A stretch of 13,994 nucleotides of DNA from Promethearchaeota archaeon. GTDB taxonomy: Archaea; Asgardarchaeota; Thorarchaeia; Thorarchaeales; Thorarchaeaceae. The stretch lies in contig JALVPN010000226.1 in the NCBI GenBank assembly GCA_027031765.1, positions 1 through 13,994 on the forward strand, read 5' to 3'. Made by a program: the position numbers and the translations under genes. Shown piece after piece: positions 928-6,500 of the stretch (its first letter is position 1; each line of letters opens with the position of its first letter). The notes beneath the pieces were generated by a model that was not told where the DNA came from, did not search any database, and worked only from the letters and a program-made list of their open reading frames with translations.

Positions 928-2334
928 ATGGCTCATCACAGTAGTGGTGGGCGGGGGTCTGTACACAGGGCCGCTGCCCTGTCAGTTATCGCCGCGGTCT
1001 TCCTTGCGTTGACGAAGATGGTAATGGGTGTCCTCACCAACTCGCTTGGGATCATCTCGGAGGCCCTCCATAGTGGGCTTGACCTGGTGGCAGCGTCAAT
1101 CACGTACGTTGCGGTGCACAAGGCGTCGAAGGGGCCTGATGAAGACCACATGTACGGCCATGGGAAAGTGGAGAGCTTCGCTGCGCTCGTGGAAACGGTC
1201 ATCCTGTGGTTCACTGCCGGCTGGATCGTGTACGAGGCAATGAGGAGGATAGACACGCAGGAGTGGCCAGCGCCAACGCTCTGGGGGATTGTGGTCATGG
1301 TCGTGAGCCTTGTGGTCGACTATGAACGCAGCCACATGCTCTACTCCACGGCACACAGACACCACAGCCAGGCCCTTGAGGCTGATGCCCTGCACTTCCG
1401 CACTGACATGATAAGCTCGGCCGTTGTCCTCTCTGGCCTCGGGTGCGTCTGGGCCGGCATCCCGATAGCCGACCCGCTGGCGGCCATCGGTGTGTCAGTG
1501 GTCATCCTCGTGGTATCACTGGAGCTGGCAAAGAAGGCCTACGACGAGCTGATAGACACGGCGCCCCGTGGGATCCGTGATGATGTCCTCCGTGCAGTGT
1601 CCTCGGTCCCCGGTGTCCGGGAGTGCGTCCGGGTGCGTGTCCGGGGCGTGGCCTCCAAGATGTTCGTTGACCTTGTGGTATCGGTCGACGAGGCCATGCC
1701 GGTGGCCCAGGCGCACACGATTGCCGAGCGCATTGAAGAGGAGATTGCCGCCCTAGACCCGCGCGCTGATGTGGTGGTACACCTCGTGCCAGCGAGCTGT
1801 GACAATGTGATGCCCACGGATACCGACATCTACTCCCAGCTCAGGCGTCTGGCCAAGGAGACCCCCGAGATTGCCAGCATCCACAATGTTAGGGTCAACG
1901 TCCTTGGAGATGGTGTGCATGTGGCGGCCCACATAGAGCTGCCTGATGACATGTCGTTGGTAGAGGCGCATTCGGTGTCTGAGGAGTTCGAGTCGCGGCT
2001 GCGGGAGATGACCCCCGAGGTGAAGGACATCACGCTCCACCTCGAAACCACCGGGACAGGCACTGTAGAGGATGTCGTGGTGGCCGGTGACGAGGGGCTT
2101 GTCGAGGAGGTGCGGAGTATAGTGGAGGGGCTGCCTGCCGTCCGGAGCTGTGGTGACATAGTTGTGAGCAGGGGTGCCCACGGGCTGAAGGTAGCGCTGA
2201 CCTGTGTGGTGGACAGCCACCTCTCGCTCCTCGAGGGGCACAGTATCTGCGATGAGATTGAGCGGCAGGTCAGGACTGTGCGCCCCGATGTCCACGATGT
2301 GCTCGTACATGTGGAGCCCGCGCCTGGACAGTAG
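928..2334 (+). CDS. Cation diffusion facilitator (CDF, FieF/CzcD-like) metal efflux transporter with three tandem C-terminal ZT_dimer-like domains
   Basis: TM2 has SEALHSGLD and TM5 has ADALHFRTD (HxxxD/HxxxD site A). The loop PDEDHMYGHGKVE matches the CDF signature, and the hydrophobic TM segments fit the family. Three CTD copies end in VVHLVP, TLHLET and LVHVEP. Confidence 0.95.
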   Translation: MAHHSSGGRGSVHRAAALSVIAAVFLALTKMVMGVLTNSLGIISEALHSGLDLVAASITYVAVHKASKGPDEDHMYGHGKVESFAALVETVILWFTAGWIVYEAMRRIDTQEWPAPTLWGIVVMVVSLVVDYERSHMLYSTAHRHHSQALEADALHFRTDMISSAVVLSGLGCVWAGIPIADPLAAIGVSVVILVVSLELAKKAYDELIDTAPRGIRDDVLRAVSSVPGVRECVRVRVRGVASKMFVDLVVSVDEAMPVAQAHTIAERIEEEIAALDPRADVVVHLVPASCDNVMPTDTDIYSQLRRLAKETPEIASIHNVRVNVLGDGVHVAAHIELPDDMSLVEAHSVSEEFESRLREMTPEVKDITLHLETTGTGTVEDVVVAGDEGLVEEVRSIVEGLPAVRSCGDIVVSRGAHGLKVALTCVVDSHLSLLEGHSICDEIERQVRTVRPDVHDVLVHVEPAPGQ

Positions 2335-2357
2335 GGCGGCCTCCGTAGAGGGCTGCC
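2335..2357 (+). terminator. Stem-loop immediately after the CDF stop codon (possible terminator or 3' stabiliser)
   Basis: GGCGGCCTC-CGTA-GAGG(G)CTGCC gives 9 pairs including one G-U, with one bulge. There is no U-tract, so function is uncertain. Confidence 0.25.
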
Positions 2358-2412
2358 ACATCTGTCCGGCCTCGCTGGTGGCATCACTCAACAGGGCCGG
2401 AGGGCGTCCCAA

Positions 2413-2424
2413 GAACCGTTATCA
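2413..2424 (+). promoter_or_regulatory. Weak candidate promoter for the M23 gene (possibly near-leaderless)
   Basis: GAACCGTTATCA resembles the GAAACCATTAAG element at 875 and sits about 25 nt before the ATG at 2449. Confidence 0.25.
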
Positions 2425-2448
2425 GGCAGCATGTCCACGTAATGATCT

Positions 2449-3141
2449 ATGAGAAGGCCCACCATCATAGCAGCCGTCCTCATGGTGGTAGGTGTCCTGC
2501 TGGTCGGCACGGGTGTCGCGCCCGACACATCAAGGCCAAGCCTTGCCTTCCCGGTGTTGGAGACCGACTCTGTTGAGAGGCTTGCACCCTACCACGCCCC
2601 CGACTGGGGTGAGGAGGGTGTGTACCACAACGGGATTGACCTCGTGGTGGCGGAGAACGTGACCATTGTGGCACCCTGCGACGGCGTTGTGGCGTCGGTC
2701 TCCGAACACGAGAACCCGTACGCTGGCAACACCTTGTTCGAGGTGTCAATCACAGTTGACATGCTCTGGCAGGTCAAGCTTGTCCTTGAGCCCGGTTTCG
2801 CCGACCAGGTGGGCAATGCAGCCCAACGGGCGGCAATTGATGTCCAGGCCGGGGAGGCCGTATCAACTGGCGACAGGGTGGCGTTGCTCCTGTACTGCGA
2901 GGGGTATCCTCACCTGCACTATATGGTACTGTACAGGATGACTGATGTCTCACCGTACGACGTCTCGTCCCCGGAGGCAAGAGCGGTCTTCGAGACAATC
3001 GCGGAGCGTTCCAACAGTACCATCCAGTACCCCTGTGACTTCCCTGCCGTCACAGATACCCCCATGTTCAGGGTCTACGTCGCGGCCGGTTGCTCTCTCT
3101 TCATAGGCGCAATCATCATACTGTGCAGGTCACGCCGCTGA
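2449..3141 (+). CDS. M23 (LytM/lysostaphin-like) family metallopeptidase, secreted and C-terminally membrane-anchored
   Basis: It has HNGID (HxxxD, 2626-2640), VAPCDGVV, VQAGEAVSTGDRVA and PHLHY (HxH, 2911-2919). There is an N-terminal hydrophobic signal segment and a C-terminal TM helix followed by the basic stop RSRR. Confidence 0.85.
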   Translation: MRRPTIIAAVLMVVGVLLVGTGVAPDTSRPSLAFPVLETDSVERLAPYHAPDWGEEGVYHNGIDLVVAENVTIVAPCDGVVASVSEHENPYAGNTLFEVSITVDMLWQVKLVLEPGFADQVGNAAQRAAIDVQAGEAVSTGDRVALLLYCEGYPHLHYMVLYRMTDVSPYDVSSPEARAVFETIAERSNSTIQYPCDFPAVTDTPMFRVYVAAGCSLFIGAIIILCRSRR

Positions 3142-3410
3142 CGCAAGTCCTTACCCCGGAGACTCGCCCGTCGCAGGTGCACTGCTACTGGACCCAGACC
3201 CACCATCGACCACCCTCATTGTCGTCACTCCCCTCGGACCGCCACCCCAATTGCCAGCTCCTCCACGGCACACAGGTCATGGGTGTCCCGGTCTGGTGCT
3301 CATCGCACACGGGCACCAGGGTACGTCACTTGGGAGTTGGTCGTGTCTCCAACTGTCAACACAGCCCGTGTCTGCCCGGTGATGGCTGTACGTCACGACC
3401 TCCCACAACT

Positions 3411-3421
3411 ATTATATATAG
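3411..3421 (+). promoter_or_regulatory. TATA box of the probable giant-protein operon promoter
   Basis: ATTATATATAG is the strongest AT-rich element in the window and sits in non-coding sequence. It would place transcription start near 3445-3447, giving a leader of about 135 nt before the ATG at 3582. Confidence 0.7.
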
Positions 3422-3446
3422 AAGTTGGAAAGGTGGAGCGTTATCT

Positions 3447-3581
3447 GCGCTGGGTGACCGATTGAGGAAAGGTCAGGAGCATGCCCCCAGCGACCACCGG
3501 TGATGCTCGAAGGAATGCATGACAGTGGCGCAATGACTGTGCGACCGCCTCCTCGTCGGCACCGAAGAGGAGGCCCGTGAA
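3447..3581 (+). promoter_or_regulatory. Structured 5' leader containing a Shine-Dalgarno (GGAGG 3569-3573) paired in a hairpin (3547-3574)
   Basis: GCCTCCTC (3547-3554) is the exact reverse complement of GAGGAGGC (3567-3574). The SD lies 8 nt before the ATG. Further stems occur at 3448-3492. Confidence 0.55.
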
Positions 3582-6500
3582 ATGAGCCCCGAGACTCGAA
3601 AGGCCCGTCTTATTTCTATTACCATACTGGTTATTGTACTGTTTGGTGTGTTCCCACAGGCTGTGTGGGCTGGACAGGTGTTGGACACTGACAGGGAGTT
3701 GTTCCCGGCCCCGTTTGACGGGTACGACCTGGACAACATATACGTCTTCTACGACCCGTCCGACGAGGCCCTGACCGCGCTTGCGCAGGGTGCGGAGGAA
3801 CTCCTGTCGTACTGGATAAAGGACGTACGGCTCATCCCTGTGGCGTCGTTCTATGATGTGGCGTGGTACATGCTAGATGAGCCGTGGGTCGCCATATACG
3901 CACTGCGCTCAGGTGTTGATGGTGTATACTTCCCCGACCGGAACCTGACATGGCCACAGTTCAGAGACCTGCTGCGCCAGCACAGGTCAACCCAGCACAT
4001 CCTCGGGATGGGCAACACACTCTCTCTGGAGCCGTTCCTCGACGACGAGGACACCATGGTGCACCACAGTGCTTCCGAACAGACAGACGCCCTGGTCCTC
4101 GTGCTGTACGATGTCTATGCGGTCAAGGAGATGTGTGAGGCGCGCGCGAACGCTACAGCCAGTGCCTCCGGTGAGGAGTTCAGACGTGCAGCTGACGACC
4201 TTGAGAGGATGACCCTCAAGGTCTATGCTGACAACTTCAATGCGGTCTTCCAGCGCACTGTCGACCCAATCGACCCGGTTGGAGAGGTCGACCCTGTTGC
4301 AGCGGAGGCGCGGCGGGCAGCCATGTGGGCGCGGCACCCACCGAGGATACGTGATGCAGCTTACAAGCTCACTGATGATGGCGACCTCGTGGAGGTGCCC
4401 GTGGACCAACTGCCGGCCAACTTCAGCCCCACAATCAGGCTGAGCACAGCGTCCGAAGTGGGCGCCTCGGACTTCATCCTTGGCGAAATCCCACTCCTGT
4501 CGGGACTGCGCGGCCCCATTGGCAAGATTGTTGATGTCCTGCTGAGCGTGCTCTCAGGCCATGGTGAGACCATCCTCTCGATCCCGAGCAGCGCCATGGA
4601 GAGCCTGCGGGACGTGTTCGAGACCATCCAGCCGCTCCTGGGCATCGTGTCAGACTTTGATGCGGAGAGCCCGCTCAAGTCCGTGATCACCGCGCTGGCA
4701 AACGAGTTCCCGTTCCCGGACAACCTGAAGACGTACCTCGAGCCTATACTCAAGGCCCTGTTCAAGCTCAGGGGTGACCTCAGCAGCATCGTGGACGTGA
4801 TCAAGGAGCTCCTGGCAGGGCTGCTACCACAGCTCATCCCGCAGCAGATAATGGACTTCCTTGACACCGTGTTGCAGGTGGGCCCGTCCCTCTGGGAGCT
4901 CATCTCTGACATCATCACCCGCGGGAAGGGCGTCTTCGACACCATCCTCAGTTTCATCACGAACAATGTGCTCGAGGCGCTGCTCAACAAGACCCTGATG
5001 GCCACCCTCGGCCTTACCACAGGCGTGGCGGACCTGGTGGCCCGTGGTGTGGCATTCGTCCGGTCTGTCGTGGACTACATCTCGAGCTTCGACTTCACGA
5101 AGTTCGTGGAGGATGTCGGTGAGGAGCTCCTCCAGACCGCTCTCGGGCTCCTCCAGGACACCATTGGCGAGGAGTTCATCGAGAAGATGATGTCCATCAT
5201 CAAGGTGGCCCTCTCGGTGGTCGACCTGGTGGACAAGTTTGACACGGAGTCGCTGGTCGAGGTGCTCGCAGAGGCTGCAGAACTCGTCATCGGTCCCTCA
5301 GACATCGTCACATCGGCAGAGGAGCTCGCCAGGGGTGTGATGGAGGTCGTCAAGGAGTACTCTGAACAGGGCCTCTCATCGGTCGCGTCCTTCGCAGATG
5401 AGGTCGAGGACGTCATTGCCCAGAACGTTGCCTCTTCGGTGCCGACTCAAGTGCGCTACCTCGTCAGGGACATTGTGACGATGGTCGCCGGCTTCTTCAA
5501 CGATGGCTTCAACCCGTCAGACGTACCACACATATTGGACATCCTCGAGGCCCTTGCGCAGCAGCTGCTCCTCGTTGGTGGTGGGTACTCGCTCTCTGAC
5601 GCGCAGGACGTCATCGATGCGCTCCGGGGTGCCGTCAGGCCAGTCCTTGCCATCGCGGCCATGGTGAGCGACTCCACGCCCCTGAAGGAGATTGTCTGCG
5701 GCACCGTGGGACAGTTCAACTCGGACTTCCCGTCAGTGGCCACTGCCCTAGTGCAGGTGGTCGAGTTCCTTGATACGGACCACATCCTGTCGGGTGTTGG
5801 GAACGCCGAAGAGGTGCTCGGGACATTCGGCGAGATCGTCAGCGGGATTGTCTCCCTAGTCAACACAGTGAAGGACCAGAGCTTCGAGGGCATCCTCAAC
5901 ACGTTGCTGATGGCCGTGGGCTCGATTGTCGGGACCTTCCCGTCCTTTGACGATGTCCCCATCACGGCCATGCTGGAGCTGCTGCAGTCCTTCTTCCCAC
6001 GGGCCTTTGGACTCGACCCGTCCAACCTGCCCAGTCCCGCACAGGTGGTCTCCAAAATCGTGGACATGGCAGCACCCTTGCTGAAGGGCATTGTGGACCC
6101 TGACGTGCTCACAGAGATGCTGAGCTTCATCATGGACATCAAGGGGATATTCACAGACGGTGTCAAGTGGTTGCTGAGCAGGGTCTACGACTGGTTGACC
6201 GGCCAGCTGACCCCGCTCCTGCAACAGCTGGAGAACTCGATCAACAGCATCCTGGGTGGTGCCGGCGACCTGCTGGGCTTTGACGGGAGCCTGCCCATTG
6301 GTCTGGGCGAGTGGTCCCTCTTCCAGCTTACAGTAGCCCTTGGTATCACAGCCAACTTCCACATCAACCCGACACCGTTCTTCGAGTTCGTGCGCAGCAT
6401 CCTCTTCGAGGGCCGCAGCCCCTTCTCACTGAGCACTCTCGGCGAGTTCTTCAAGGTCGTCTTCTCGTTCTTTGAGATCTCGCCACAGTTCTACGCCGAG

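What the first reader, a model, noticed from the sequence alone, without database searches (positions are those of the whole stretch)
3447..3581. Candidate novel riboswitch or thermometer-like leader that locks the ribosome-binding site of the giant operon
Seen: (i) an anti-SD hairpin GCCTCCTC/GAGGAGGC of 8 perfect pairs, then a G-A mismatch, 3 more pairs and a GCAC loop, which buries GGAGG. (ii) A 5' domain starting right at the predicted TSS: CGCTGGG(3448-3454)/CCCAGCG(3486-3492) stacked on TGACC/GGTCA. (iii) GAGCAT(3477-3482) in its bulge is complementary to ATGCTC(3503-3508), a possible pseudoknot or alternative helix. (iv) GAGGA-AA-GGTC(3464-3474) can pair with GACC-GCC-TCCTC(3543-3554), an anti-anti-SD helix that would free the SD and excludes the 5' domain. 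Established: mutually exclusive SD-sequestering helices are the standard expression platform of translational riboswitches, and few riboswitch classes are known in archaea. Inference: a ligand, ion, protein or temperature switch may gate translation of more than 10 kb of costly surface protein. I recognise no known aptamer class.
Basis: partly seen in the sequence, partly recalled or inferred. Interest (0 to 1): 0.65.

Follow-up and report, generated by a model that had tools for sequence, protein, structure and literature searches.

The report
Two-state mRNA leader, Asgard surface-protein operon
The roughly 136-base untranslated start of the messenger RNA for a giant cell-surface protein in Thorarchaeota (Asgard archaea) is a conserved folded RNA that can either hide or expose the ribosome-binding site, but nothing shows that a small molecule or temperature operates it.

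Summary
The leader is conserved. About 40 Thorarchaeota genomes and contigs carry a 132-162 nt leader between a consensus TATA box and the orthologous giant gene, one copy per genome and nowhere else. The universal core is a long-range rod: the GA-rich 5' end of the transcript (window 3451-3482) pairs with the CU-rich anti-SD strand (3539-3565), which leaves the Shine-Dalgarno (SD) site free. On an 18-sequence alignment, 29 of 45 of its pairs show compensatory changes. It competes with a local 5' domain (P1/P2) plus the SD-locking hairpin (3547-3574). In the window the two folds are predicted to be isoenergetic (-60.9 kcal/mol each).

No Rfam family matches. No aptamer-like core is conserved, the element serves a single gene, and the predicted balance shows no consistent temperature trend. 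I therefore read it as a new two-state translational gate with an unknown trigger, whose open form may also protect the mRNA's 5' end. I do not read it as a metabolite riboswitch or a thermometer. A purely constitutive stabilising leader remains a serious rival.

The parts
3410..3421 (+). Archaeal TATA box (TATTATATATAG) of the operon promoter
   Evidence: In 35 of 35 orthologous loci a TTATAT-type box starts 29-34 nt (median 31) upstream of the conserved leader start, with variable sequence in between.
3443..3447 (+). Predicted transcription start (inferred, not mapped)
   Evidence: TATA geometry. Sequence conservation begins here.
3446..3475 (+). Strand X, the near-invariant 5' end. It holds the P1 5' strand 3448-3454, the P2 5' strand 3455-3459, the GA-rich SD mimic GAGGA 3464-3468 in the P2 loop, and the P2 3' strand 3471-3475.
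   Evidence: The consensus is UUCGCUGGGCGRCCGA followed by GGAGAG.
3476..3485 (+). 3'-side bulge J (GGAGCAUGCC; family consensus GCAYGC). It is unpaired in the 5'-domain fold and paired (3479-3482 with 3539-3542) in the long-range fold.
   Evidence: helix 6: 4 of 6 pairs have changes on both sides.
3486..3492 (+). P1 3' strand CCCAGCG
   Evidence: A P1-like duplex of -9 kcal/mol or better is found in 32 of 41 leaders. G-C changes to A-U at position 4 in two genera, and C-G to A-U at position 5.
3493..3542 (+). Variable middle domain, including the conserved ACCACC / GCCACC motif (3493-3498)
   Evidence: The motif is kept even in divergent leaders. Its function is unexplained.
3539..3565 (+). 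Strand Y, the CU-rich anti-SD strand and its flanks. It pairs with X (long-range rod, 3451-3482) or with the SD (hairpin).
   Evidence: MFE.
3547..3574 (+). SD-sequestering hairpin (8 bp, G-A mismatch, 3 bp, GCAC loop)
3569..3573 (+). Shine-Dalgarno core GGAGG, 8 nt before the start codon
   Evidence: GAGGAGG is conserved upstream of all orthologs.
3582..10166 (+). Gene 1: a 2194-aa secreted giant protein with TSP3 repeats
   Evidence: Orthologs were found in 50 of 85 other genomes of the family.
10170..13994 (+). Gene 2: an FG-GAP repeat protein that runs off the contig

Best explanation
The leader is a lineage-specific cis-acting RNA built on a three-strand competition. The CU-rich strand Y (3539-3565) lies just upstream of the SD. 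It can pair with the SD region, forming the hairpin 3547-3574 that locks the ribosome site. Alternatively it can pair with the GA-rich SD mimic and its flanks at the extreme 5' end of the transcript (X, 3451-3482), forming a long-range rod that leaves the SD single-stranded directly 3' of the rod.

When it is not in the rod, X folds into a local 5' domain (P1 3448-3454/3486-3492 and P2 3455-3459/3471-3475). The RNA therefore has a closed state (5' domain plus SD hairpin) and an open state (rod).

Shown:
- the helices exist;
- they are conserved across Thorarchaeota with compensatory changes;
- the two states are predicted to be near-isoenergetic.

Inferred:
- the balance sets how often ribosomes start on this operon of more than 10 kb;
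- in most orthologs the open rod also base-pairs the 5' terminus and so may protect the long mRNA;
- some factor that is not a classical small-molecule ligand (folding kinetics during transcription, a protein, an RNA or ionic conditions) shifts the balance.
For: - Synteny and promoter geometry. The leader sits between a TATA box at fixed distance and the orthologous gene in about 40 loci.
- Long-range rod. The RNAalifold consensus in subgroups shows it. On the CM alignment of 18 leaders, 86.8% of cells are paired against 78.1% in shuffles. 29 of 45 pairs change on both sides against 12.2 +/- 2.4 (0 of 500 shuffles). Slid controls give 39-50% paired.
- Cognate 5'/3' strands pair better than non-cognate ones: -30.3 against -25.6 kcal/mol, permutation p < 2e-4.
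- SD hairpin. Cognate pairing is -15.2 against -13.1 for non-cognate, p < 2e-4. Within one genus, CUUCGA/UCGAGG becomes CUUCAAU/AUUGAGG at positions that are unpaired in the rod.
- P1 covaries in two genera. The GGG of X is more conserved where P1 exists: 0.96-1.0 against 0.57-0.86.
- Balance in the window: OFF -60.9 and ON -60.9 kcal/mol. The MFE flips between the two states as the transcript lengthens.
- Balance in orthologs: the ON-OFF difference averages -1.2 (sd 4.2), and 20 of 35 lie within 3 kcal/mol.
- The window's SD hairpin is in the top 0.15% of the genome background, so the gene could hardly be translated without the competing rod.
Against: - No experimental TSS, structure probing or expression data exist.
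- All energies are nearest-neighbour predictions.
- The SD hairpin is no better than the top 5% of the genome background in 20 of 35 orthologs. P1 is absent in about 9 of 41. The closed state is therefore not universal, and some lineages look constitutively open.
- The CM alignment is fitted to the rod structure, and the sequences are related to one another.
- The group-A model R1 does not retrieve the window's own leader. Its membership rests on synteny, shared motifs and analogous helices.
- No trigger has been identified.
Confidence: 0.5

Rival explanations
1. Constitutive 5' clamp. Only the long-range rod is functional. It base-pairs the 5' terminus, stabilises a very long mRNA and presents the SD, as S-layer gene leaders do. 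The SD hairpin and the 5' domain are by-products of GA-rich and CU-rich strands lying next to a GA-rich SD.
For: - The rod is the one universally conserved and covarying feature.
- It dominates the predicted ensemble, with the SD largely free, in about half of the orthologs.
- The closed-state helices are weak or missing in several lineages.
- The element serves a single gene that has a consensus promoter and a strong SD, as expected for an abundant surface protein.
- There is a precedent: the slpA 5' UTR forms a stable stem-loop that stabilises the transcript and exposes the RBS (PMC10221546).
Against: - It does not explain why the rod's 3' strand is an anti-SD sequence in every lineage.
- It does not explain why SD-hairpin complementarity extends beyond the core: 11 bp in the window (top 0.15%), with a compensatory change at rod-unpaired positions.
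- It does not explain why P1 covaries.
- It does not explain why X is nearly invariant while its rod partner varies.
Confidence: 0.3
2. A true riboswitch. The 5' domain (P1-P2 with the GCAYGC bulge and a purine loop) is an aptamer for a metabolite or an ion such as Ca2+ or Mg2+. Ligand binding holds X and lets Y lock the SD.
For: - A compact domain of about 47 nt with conserved loop and bulge is present in most lineages.
- The expression platform has classic mutually exclusive helices.
- The downstream proteins carry Ca-binding repeats.
Against: - No Rfam match.
- The domain is absent or altered in groups B and C.
- The bulge sequence varies and covaries with a rod partner (helix 6).
- The 'platform' is more conserved than the 'aptamer', the reverse of what riboswitches show.
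- There is one copy per genome and one gene family only.
Confidence: 0.1
3. RNA thermometer. The SD hairpin melts, or the ON/OFF balance shifts, with temperature.
For: An SD-masking hairpin with an internal mismatch is present. Archaeal precedents exist for predicted RBS-masking stem-loops in 5' UTRs that respond to cold (PMC5378194).
Against: - The predicted free fraction of the SD in the window is 0.00 to 0.03 from 5 to 55 C.
- The ON-OFF difference changes direction inconsistently: it decreases in 18 of 35 orthologs, and the mean is flat at about -1.1.
- The hairpin is far more stable than known thermometers (this comparison is from my own knowledge).
- The gene is not a heat-shock or cold-shock gene.
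Confidence: 0.05

Closest known systems
Expression platforms of translational riboswitches (SD / anti-SD / anti-anti-SD helices)
   Same: Three strands form mutually exclusive helices that decide whether the SD is single-stranded. The element lies in a 5' UTR directly before the start codon.
   Different: No conserved ligand pocket was found. There is no Rfam match. It serves a single gene. The anti-anti-SD strand is the very 5' end of the mRNA, and it forms a rod that encloses the whole UTR.
S-layer gene 5' UTR stabilisers (Lactobacillus slpA; PMC10221546)
   Same: A long leader on a surface-protein mRNA. A stable structure involves the 5' end and leaves the RBS exposed. The promoter is strong.
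   Different: There is no sequence relationship. The host is an archaeon. This leader also encodes a competing SD-locking hairpin and a 5' domain of about equal stability. The mRNA half-life is unknown.
Two-conformation mRNA leaders such as E. coli cspA (mentioned in PMC5378194), and the long-distance SD interactions of phage MS2 maturation-gene and hok mRNAs (from my own knowledge)
   Same: Alternative global folds of a leader of about 150 nt, involving the 5' end, set SD accessibility. The order of folding during transcription may matter.
   Different: Here the long-range interaction opens the SD rather than closing it. No temperature dependence is predicted. There is no homology.

Membership tests
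Metabolite/ion riboswitch | Match to a described aptamer class | tested here: not met
   An Rfam 15 scan at E up to 10 on window 3000-3900 gave only noise. Nothing reached E <= 0.1 in 10 orthologous loci.
Metabolite/ion riboswitch | Aptamer core conserved across all representatives, more strongly than the expression platform | tested here: not met
   P1 is absent in about 9 of 41 leaders. The bulge varies and covaries with a rod partner. The middle region cannot be aligned. The X/Y/SD strands are the best-conserved parts.
Metabolite/ion riboswitch | Mutually exclusive helices coupling the sensor to the SD | tested here: met
Metabolite/ion riboswitch | Recurs upstream of several functionally related genes | tested here: not met
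   Both the pattern search and the CM search of 86 family genomes found one copy per genome, always at the giant-gene ortholog.
Metabolite/ion riboswitch | Direct ligand binding | not testable with these tools
   This needs in-line probing, SHAPE or ITC.
RNA thermometer | The SD is masked by a hairpin | tested here: met
   Hairpin 3547-3574.
RNA thermometer | Gradual opening of the SD over the physiological temperature range | tested here: not met
   Predicted only. The window's SD is 0.00-0.03 free from 5 to 55 C, and the orthologs show no consistent trend.
5'-UTR mRNA stabiliser (slpA/ompA type) | The 5'-terminal nucleotides are base-paired in a stable structure | tested here: met
   U1, U2 and C3 are paired in 16-18 of 18 aligned leaders (helix 1). 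In the window's rod, pairing starts at 3451-3453 and reaches 3445-3446 in the prefix fold.
5'-UTR mRNA stabiliser (slpA/ompA type) | The RBS is left accessible | tested here: inconclusive
   The SD core is 0.5-0.8 free in rod-dominated orthologs, but about 0 in the window and about 10 others.
5'-UTR mRNA stabiliser (slpA/ompA type) | Prolongs mRNA half-life | not testable with these tools
   This needs decay measurements.

The most novel reading that the evidence does not exclude
The leader is the first regulated riboswitch-like or protein-operated translational switch known from Asgard archaea. In this reading its conserved 5' domain senses a cellular signal, such as envelope or secretion status, a divalent ion or an RNA-binding protein, and thereby gates synthesis of the lineage's giant surface-protein complex.
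Probability: 0.25. Interest if true: 0.8.

Novelty: new member of a known kind. Interest (0 to 1): 0.55.

Why it matters
[quoted passage not shown] This leader is conserved across a whole family of Thorarchaeota. It is tied to their largest conserved surface-protein operon. Its compact and explicit two-state design can be tested directly in vitro by probing, toeprinting and compensatory mutants.

If it is regulated, it would show how these slow-growing archaea control a very costly envelope component after transcription. If it is constitutive, it would be an archaeal counterpart of the leaders that stabilise S-layer mRNAs.

Tried and rejected
- Known RNA families: none match.
- A regulon. The 5' motif and the CM occur once per genome. 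The second 13/15 match in this genome (C208) lies inside a coding region with no TATA box and no further motif, so it is chance.
- An upstream ORF. AUG 3481 opens 13 codons in the window, but the AUG is not conserved; many orthologs have GCACGC there.
The conserved partner of the bulge is the segment just 5' of the anti-SD strand, as part of the rod.
- Thermometer behaviour.
- GCCACCA as a general 5'-UTR signal. It is not enriched upstream of 1762 putative SD-led genes: 77 occurrences against 77 for its reverse complement.
- K-turn and bulge-helix-bulge motifs. I inspected the internal loops of the rod by eye and saw no tandem G-A pairs and no 3-nt opposed bulges. This was not tested with a tool.
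- A consensus fold on plain MAFFT alignments of all leaders gave no structure. Subgroup alignments and a covariance model were needed.
- The group-A model does not find the window's own diverged leader.
- Lokiarchaeia and Harpocratesius orthologs lack the leader.

Full report
**Context**

The window is an entire 13,994-bp contig of a 2.95-Mb, 59% GC archaeal MAG. Record titles of the nearest relatives identify the group as Thorarchaeota, Asgard archaea.

The plus strand carries these features in order:
- a CDF cation-efflux gene (928-2334);
- an M23-like gene (2449-3141);
- a 440-nt gap;
- a 2194-aa secreted TSP3-repeat protein (3582-10166);
- three bases later, an FG-GAP repeat protein that runs off the contig.

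**The observation**

- Against random 33-mers from the same genome, the anti-SD/SD duplex (-23.4 kcal/mol) is matched by 0.15% of controls.
- The long-range 5'-strand/anti-SD duplex (-34.7 kcal/mol) is matched by 0.8%.
- The 5' domain alone is not significant, and the overall z-score is only -1.9.

The single sequence is therefore suggestive rather than decisive.

**Conservation**

The N-terminal 500 aa of the giant protein finds orthologs of about 2,100-2,250 aa in 50 of 85 other genomes of the family. It also finds further Thorarchaeota contigs in the genome and metagenome collections.

In about 40 non-identical loci the upstream region has the same plan:
- A TTATAT-type TATA box starts 29-34 nt (median 31) before a near-invariant UUCGCUGGGCGRCCGA. 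This is the spacing expected if transcription starts at the first bases of that motif.
- A GGAGAG-type purine run follows.
- Next comes a GCAYGC element.
- In most loci, CCCAGCG follows.
- The middle is variable and holds a GCCACC motif.
- A CU-rich strand follows.
- GAGGAGG lies 8-15 nt before the start codon.

Leaders are 132-162 nt long. The window's version is diverged at the sequence level but has every element.

**The universal structure**

It returned a long-range rod in which the first 40 nt or so pair with the 45 nt or so that precede the SD.

A covariance model was built from one subgroup. It retrieved full-length matches from other subgroups. On that 18-sequence alignment:
- 86.8% of cells are paired, against 78.1% in shuffles and 39-50% when partners are slid;
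- 29 of 45 pairs change on both sides, against 12.2 +/- 2.4 (0 of 500 shuffles).

The alignment is fitted to the model, so these figures lean towards the structure. An alignment-free test agrees: each leader's own 5' and 3' strands pair better than non-cognate combinations, -30.3 against -25.6 kcal/mol, permutation p < 2e-4.

In the window the rod consists of these pairings:

| 5' side | 3' side |
|---|---|
| 3453-3456 | 3560-3563 |
| 3458-3462 | 3555-3559 |
| 3464-3468 | 3550-3554 |
| 3471-3474 | 3543-3546 |
| 3479-3482 | 3539-3542 |

In the rod the SD core lies unpaired immediately 3' of the helix. In most orthologs the first three nucleotides of the transcript are paired (helix 1).

**The competing state**

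The same CU-rich strand is an anti-SD sequence in every lineage.
- The SD hairpin also shows cognate-over-non-cognate complementarity: -15.2 against -13.1 kcal/mol, p < 2e-4.
- Within one genus, CUUCGA/UCGAGG is replaced by CUUCAAU/AUUGAGG at positions that are unpaired in the rod. That change is specific to the hairpin.
- P1 is detectable in 32 of 41 leaders. G-C changes to A-U at one position in two genera, and C-G to A-U at another.
- The GGG that P1 uses is more conserved where P1 exists.
- One subgroup carries an internal second copy of UUCGCUGG that takes over CCAGCG when the 5' copy is in the rod. A first-stage reader noted the same thing on another genome.

The closed state is not universal. 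In 20 of 35 orthologs the SD hairpin does not reach the top 5% of the genome background, and two subgroups lack P1.

**Energetics (all predicted)**

- For window 3445-3611, the closed fold (P1, P2 and SD hairpin) and the open fold (rod) both have an MFE of -60.9 kcal/mol at 37 C. Their ensemble energies stay within about 1 kcal/mol from 10 to 55 C.
- As the transcript is lengthened, the MFE switches several times: the 5' domain first; the rod once the CU-rich strand exists (ends 3555-3572); the closed fold once the SD exists (3576-3584); the rod again at 3595; and the closed fold at 3611 and 3640.
- Across 35 orthologs the ON-OFF difference averages -1.2 kcal/mol (sd 4.2), with 20 within 3 kcal/mol.
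- No consistent temperature trend appears.

**What it is not**

- No Rfam family matches.
- The 5' motif and the model occur once per genome and only at this gene. The second near-match in this genome lies inside a coding region.
- The window's short upstream ORF is not conserved.
- The parts that would form an aptamer are less conserved than the SD-control strands. Their unpaired nucleotides have covarying partners in the rod.

These points argue against a metabolite riboswitch. The flat temperature behaviour argues against a thermometer.

**Interpretation**

The best-supported reading is a two-state translational gate built from three strands: an SD mimic at the 5' end, the anti-SD strand and the SD. 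The open form also pairs the 5' terminus.

What moves the balance is unknown. Candidates are co-transcriptional folding order, a protein, an RNA or ionic conditions.

The main rival is that only the rod matters, as a constitutive stabiliser that presents the SD, like the slpA leader of Lactobacillus (PMC10221546). That rival explains the universal features. It does not explain the anti-SD nature of the rod's 3' strand, the extended and compensated SD hairpin, P1 covariation or the near-invariance of the 5' strand.

I found no description of such an element in Asgard archaea in the searchable literature. It is a new RNA family of a known mechanistic kind.

Noticed in passing
window 3493-3498; also L009, L013, L021 and L061 upstream regions: A GCCACC(A/C) motif (ACCACC in the window) is the most widely kept element in the middle of the leader. 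It survives even in divergent leaders that lack the 5' UUCGCUGGG motif. It is not enriched upstream of other SD-led genes in this genome (77 occurrences against 77 for its reverse complement). Its function is unexplained.
   Followed up: partly
L064, L121-L127 (paralogous giant genes in other Thorarchaeota): Paralogs at about 40-45% identity have their own leaders. Each has a TATA box, a 5' TTCG(N)CTG start in several, and a GA-rich 5' strand complementary to a CU-rich strand near the SD (for example AUGGAGUAA/UUACUCCAU and AGGAAGUG/CACUUCCU). The long-range design therefore seems older than the ortholog group. This was judged by eye only.
   Followed up: partly
L025, L028-L030, L032, L057 (one genus): These leaders contain an internal duplicate of the 5'-terminal UUCGCUGG. 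It pairs with CCAGCG in the rod state, which gives a clean strand-exchange design.
   Followed up: partly
L062, L067, L068 (Promethearchaeum, Harpocratesius, Lokiarchaeum ossiferum): Lokiarchaeial orthologs of the giant protein have AT-rich upstream regions with no trace of the leader. The element appears restricted to Thorarchaeota.
   Followed up: partly
window 928-3141: A CDF cation-efflux gene with a repeated ZT_dimer match, and an M23-like peptidase gene, lie directly upstream of the promoter. I did not check whether this neighbourhood is conserved.
   Followed up: no
L007, L020, L024, L027 start regions: In several orthologs the position aligned with the window's ATG is not a start codon (ATA, AGA). 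A TTG or GTG 3-6 nt upstream probably serves instead, so start-codon choice varies while the SD is fixed.
   Followed up: no
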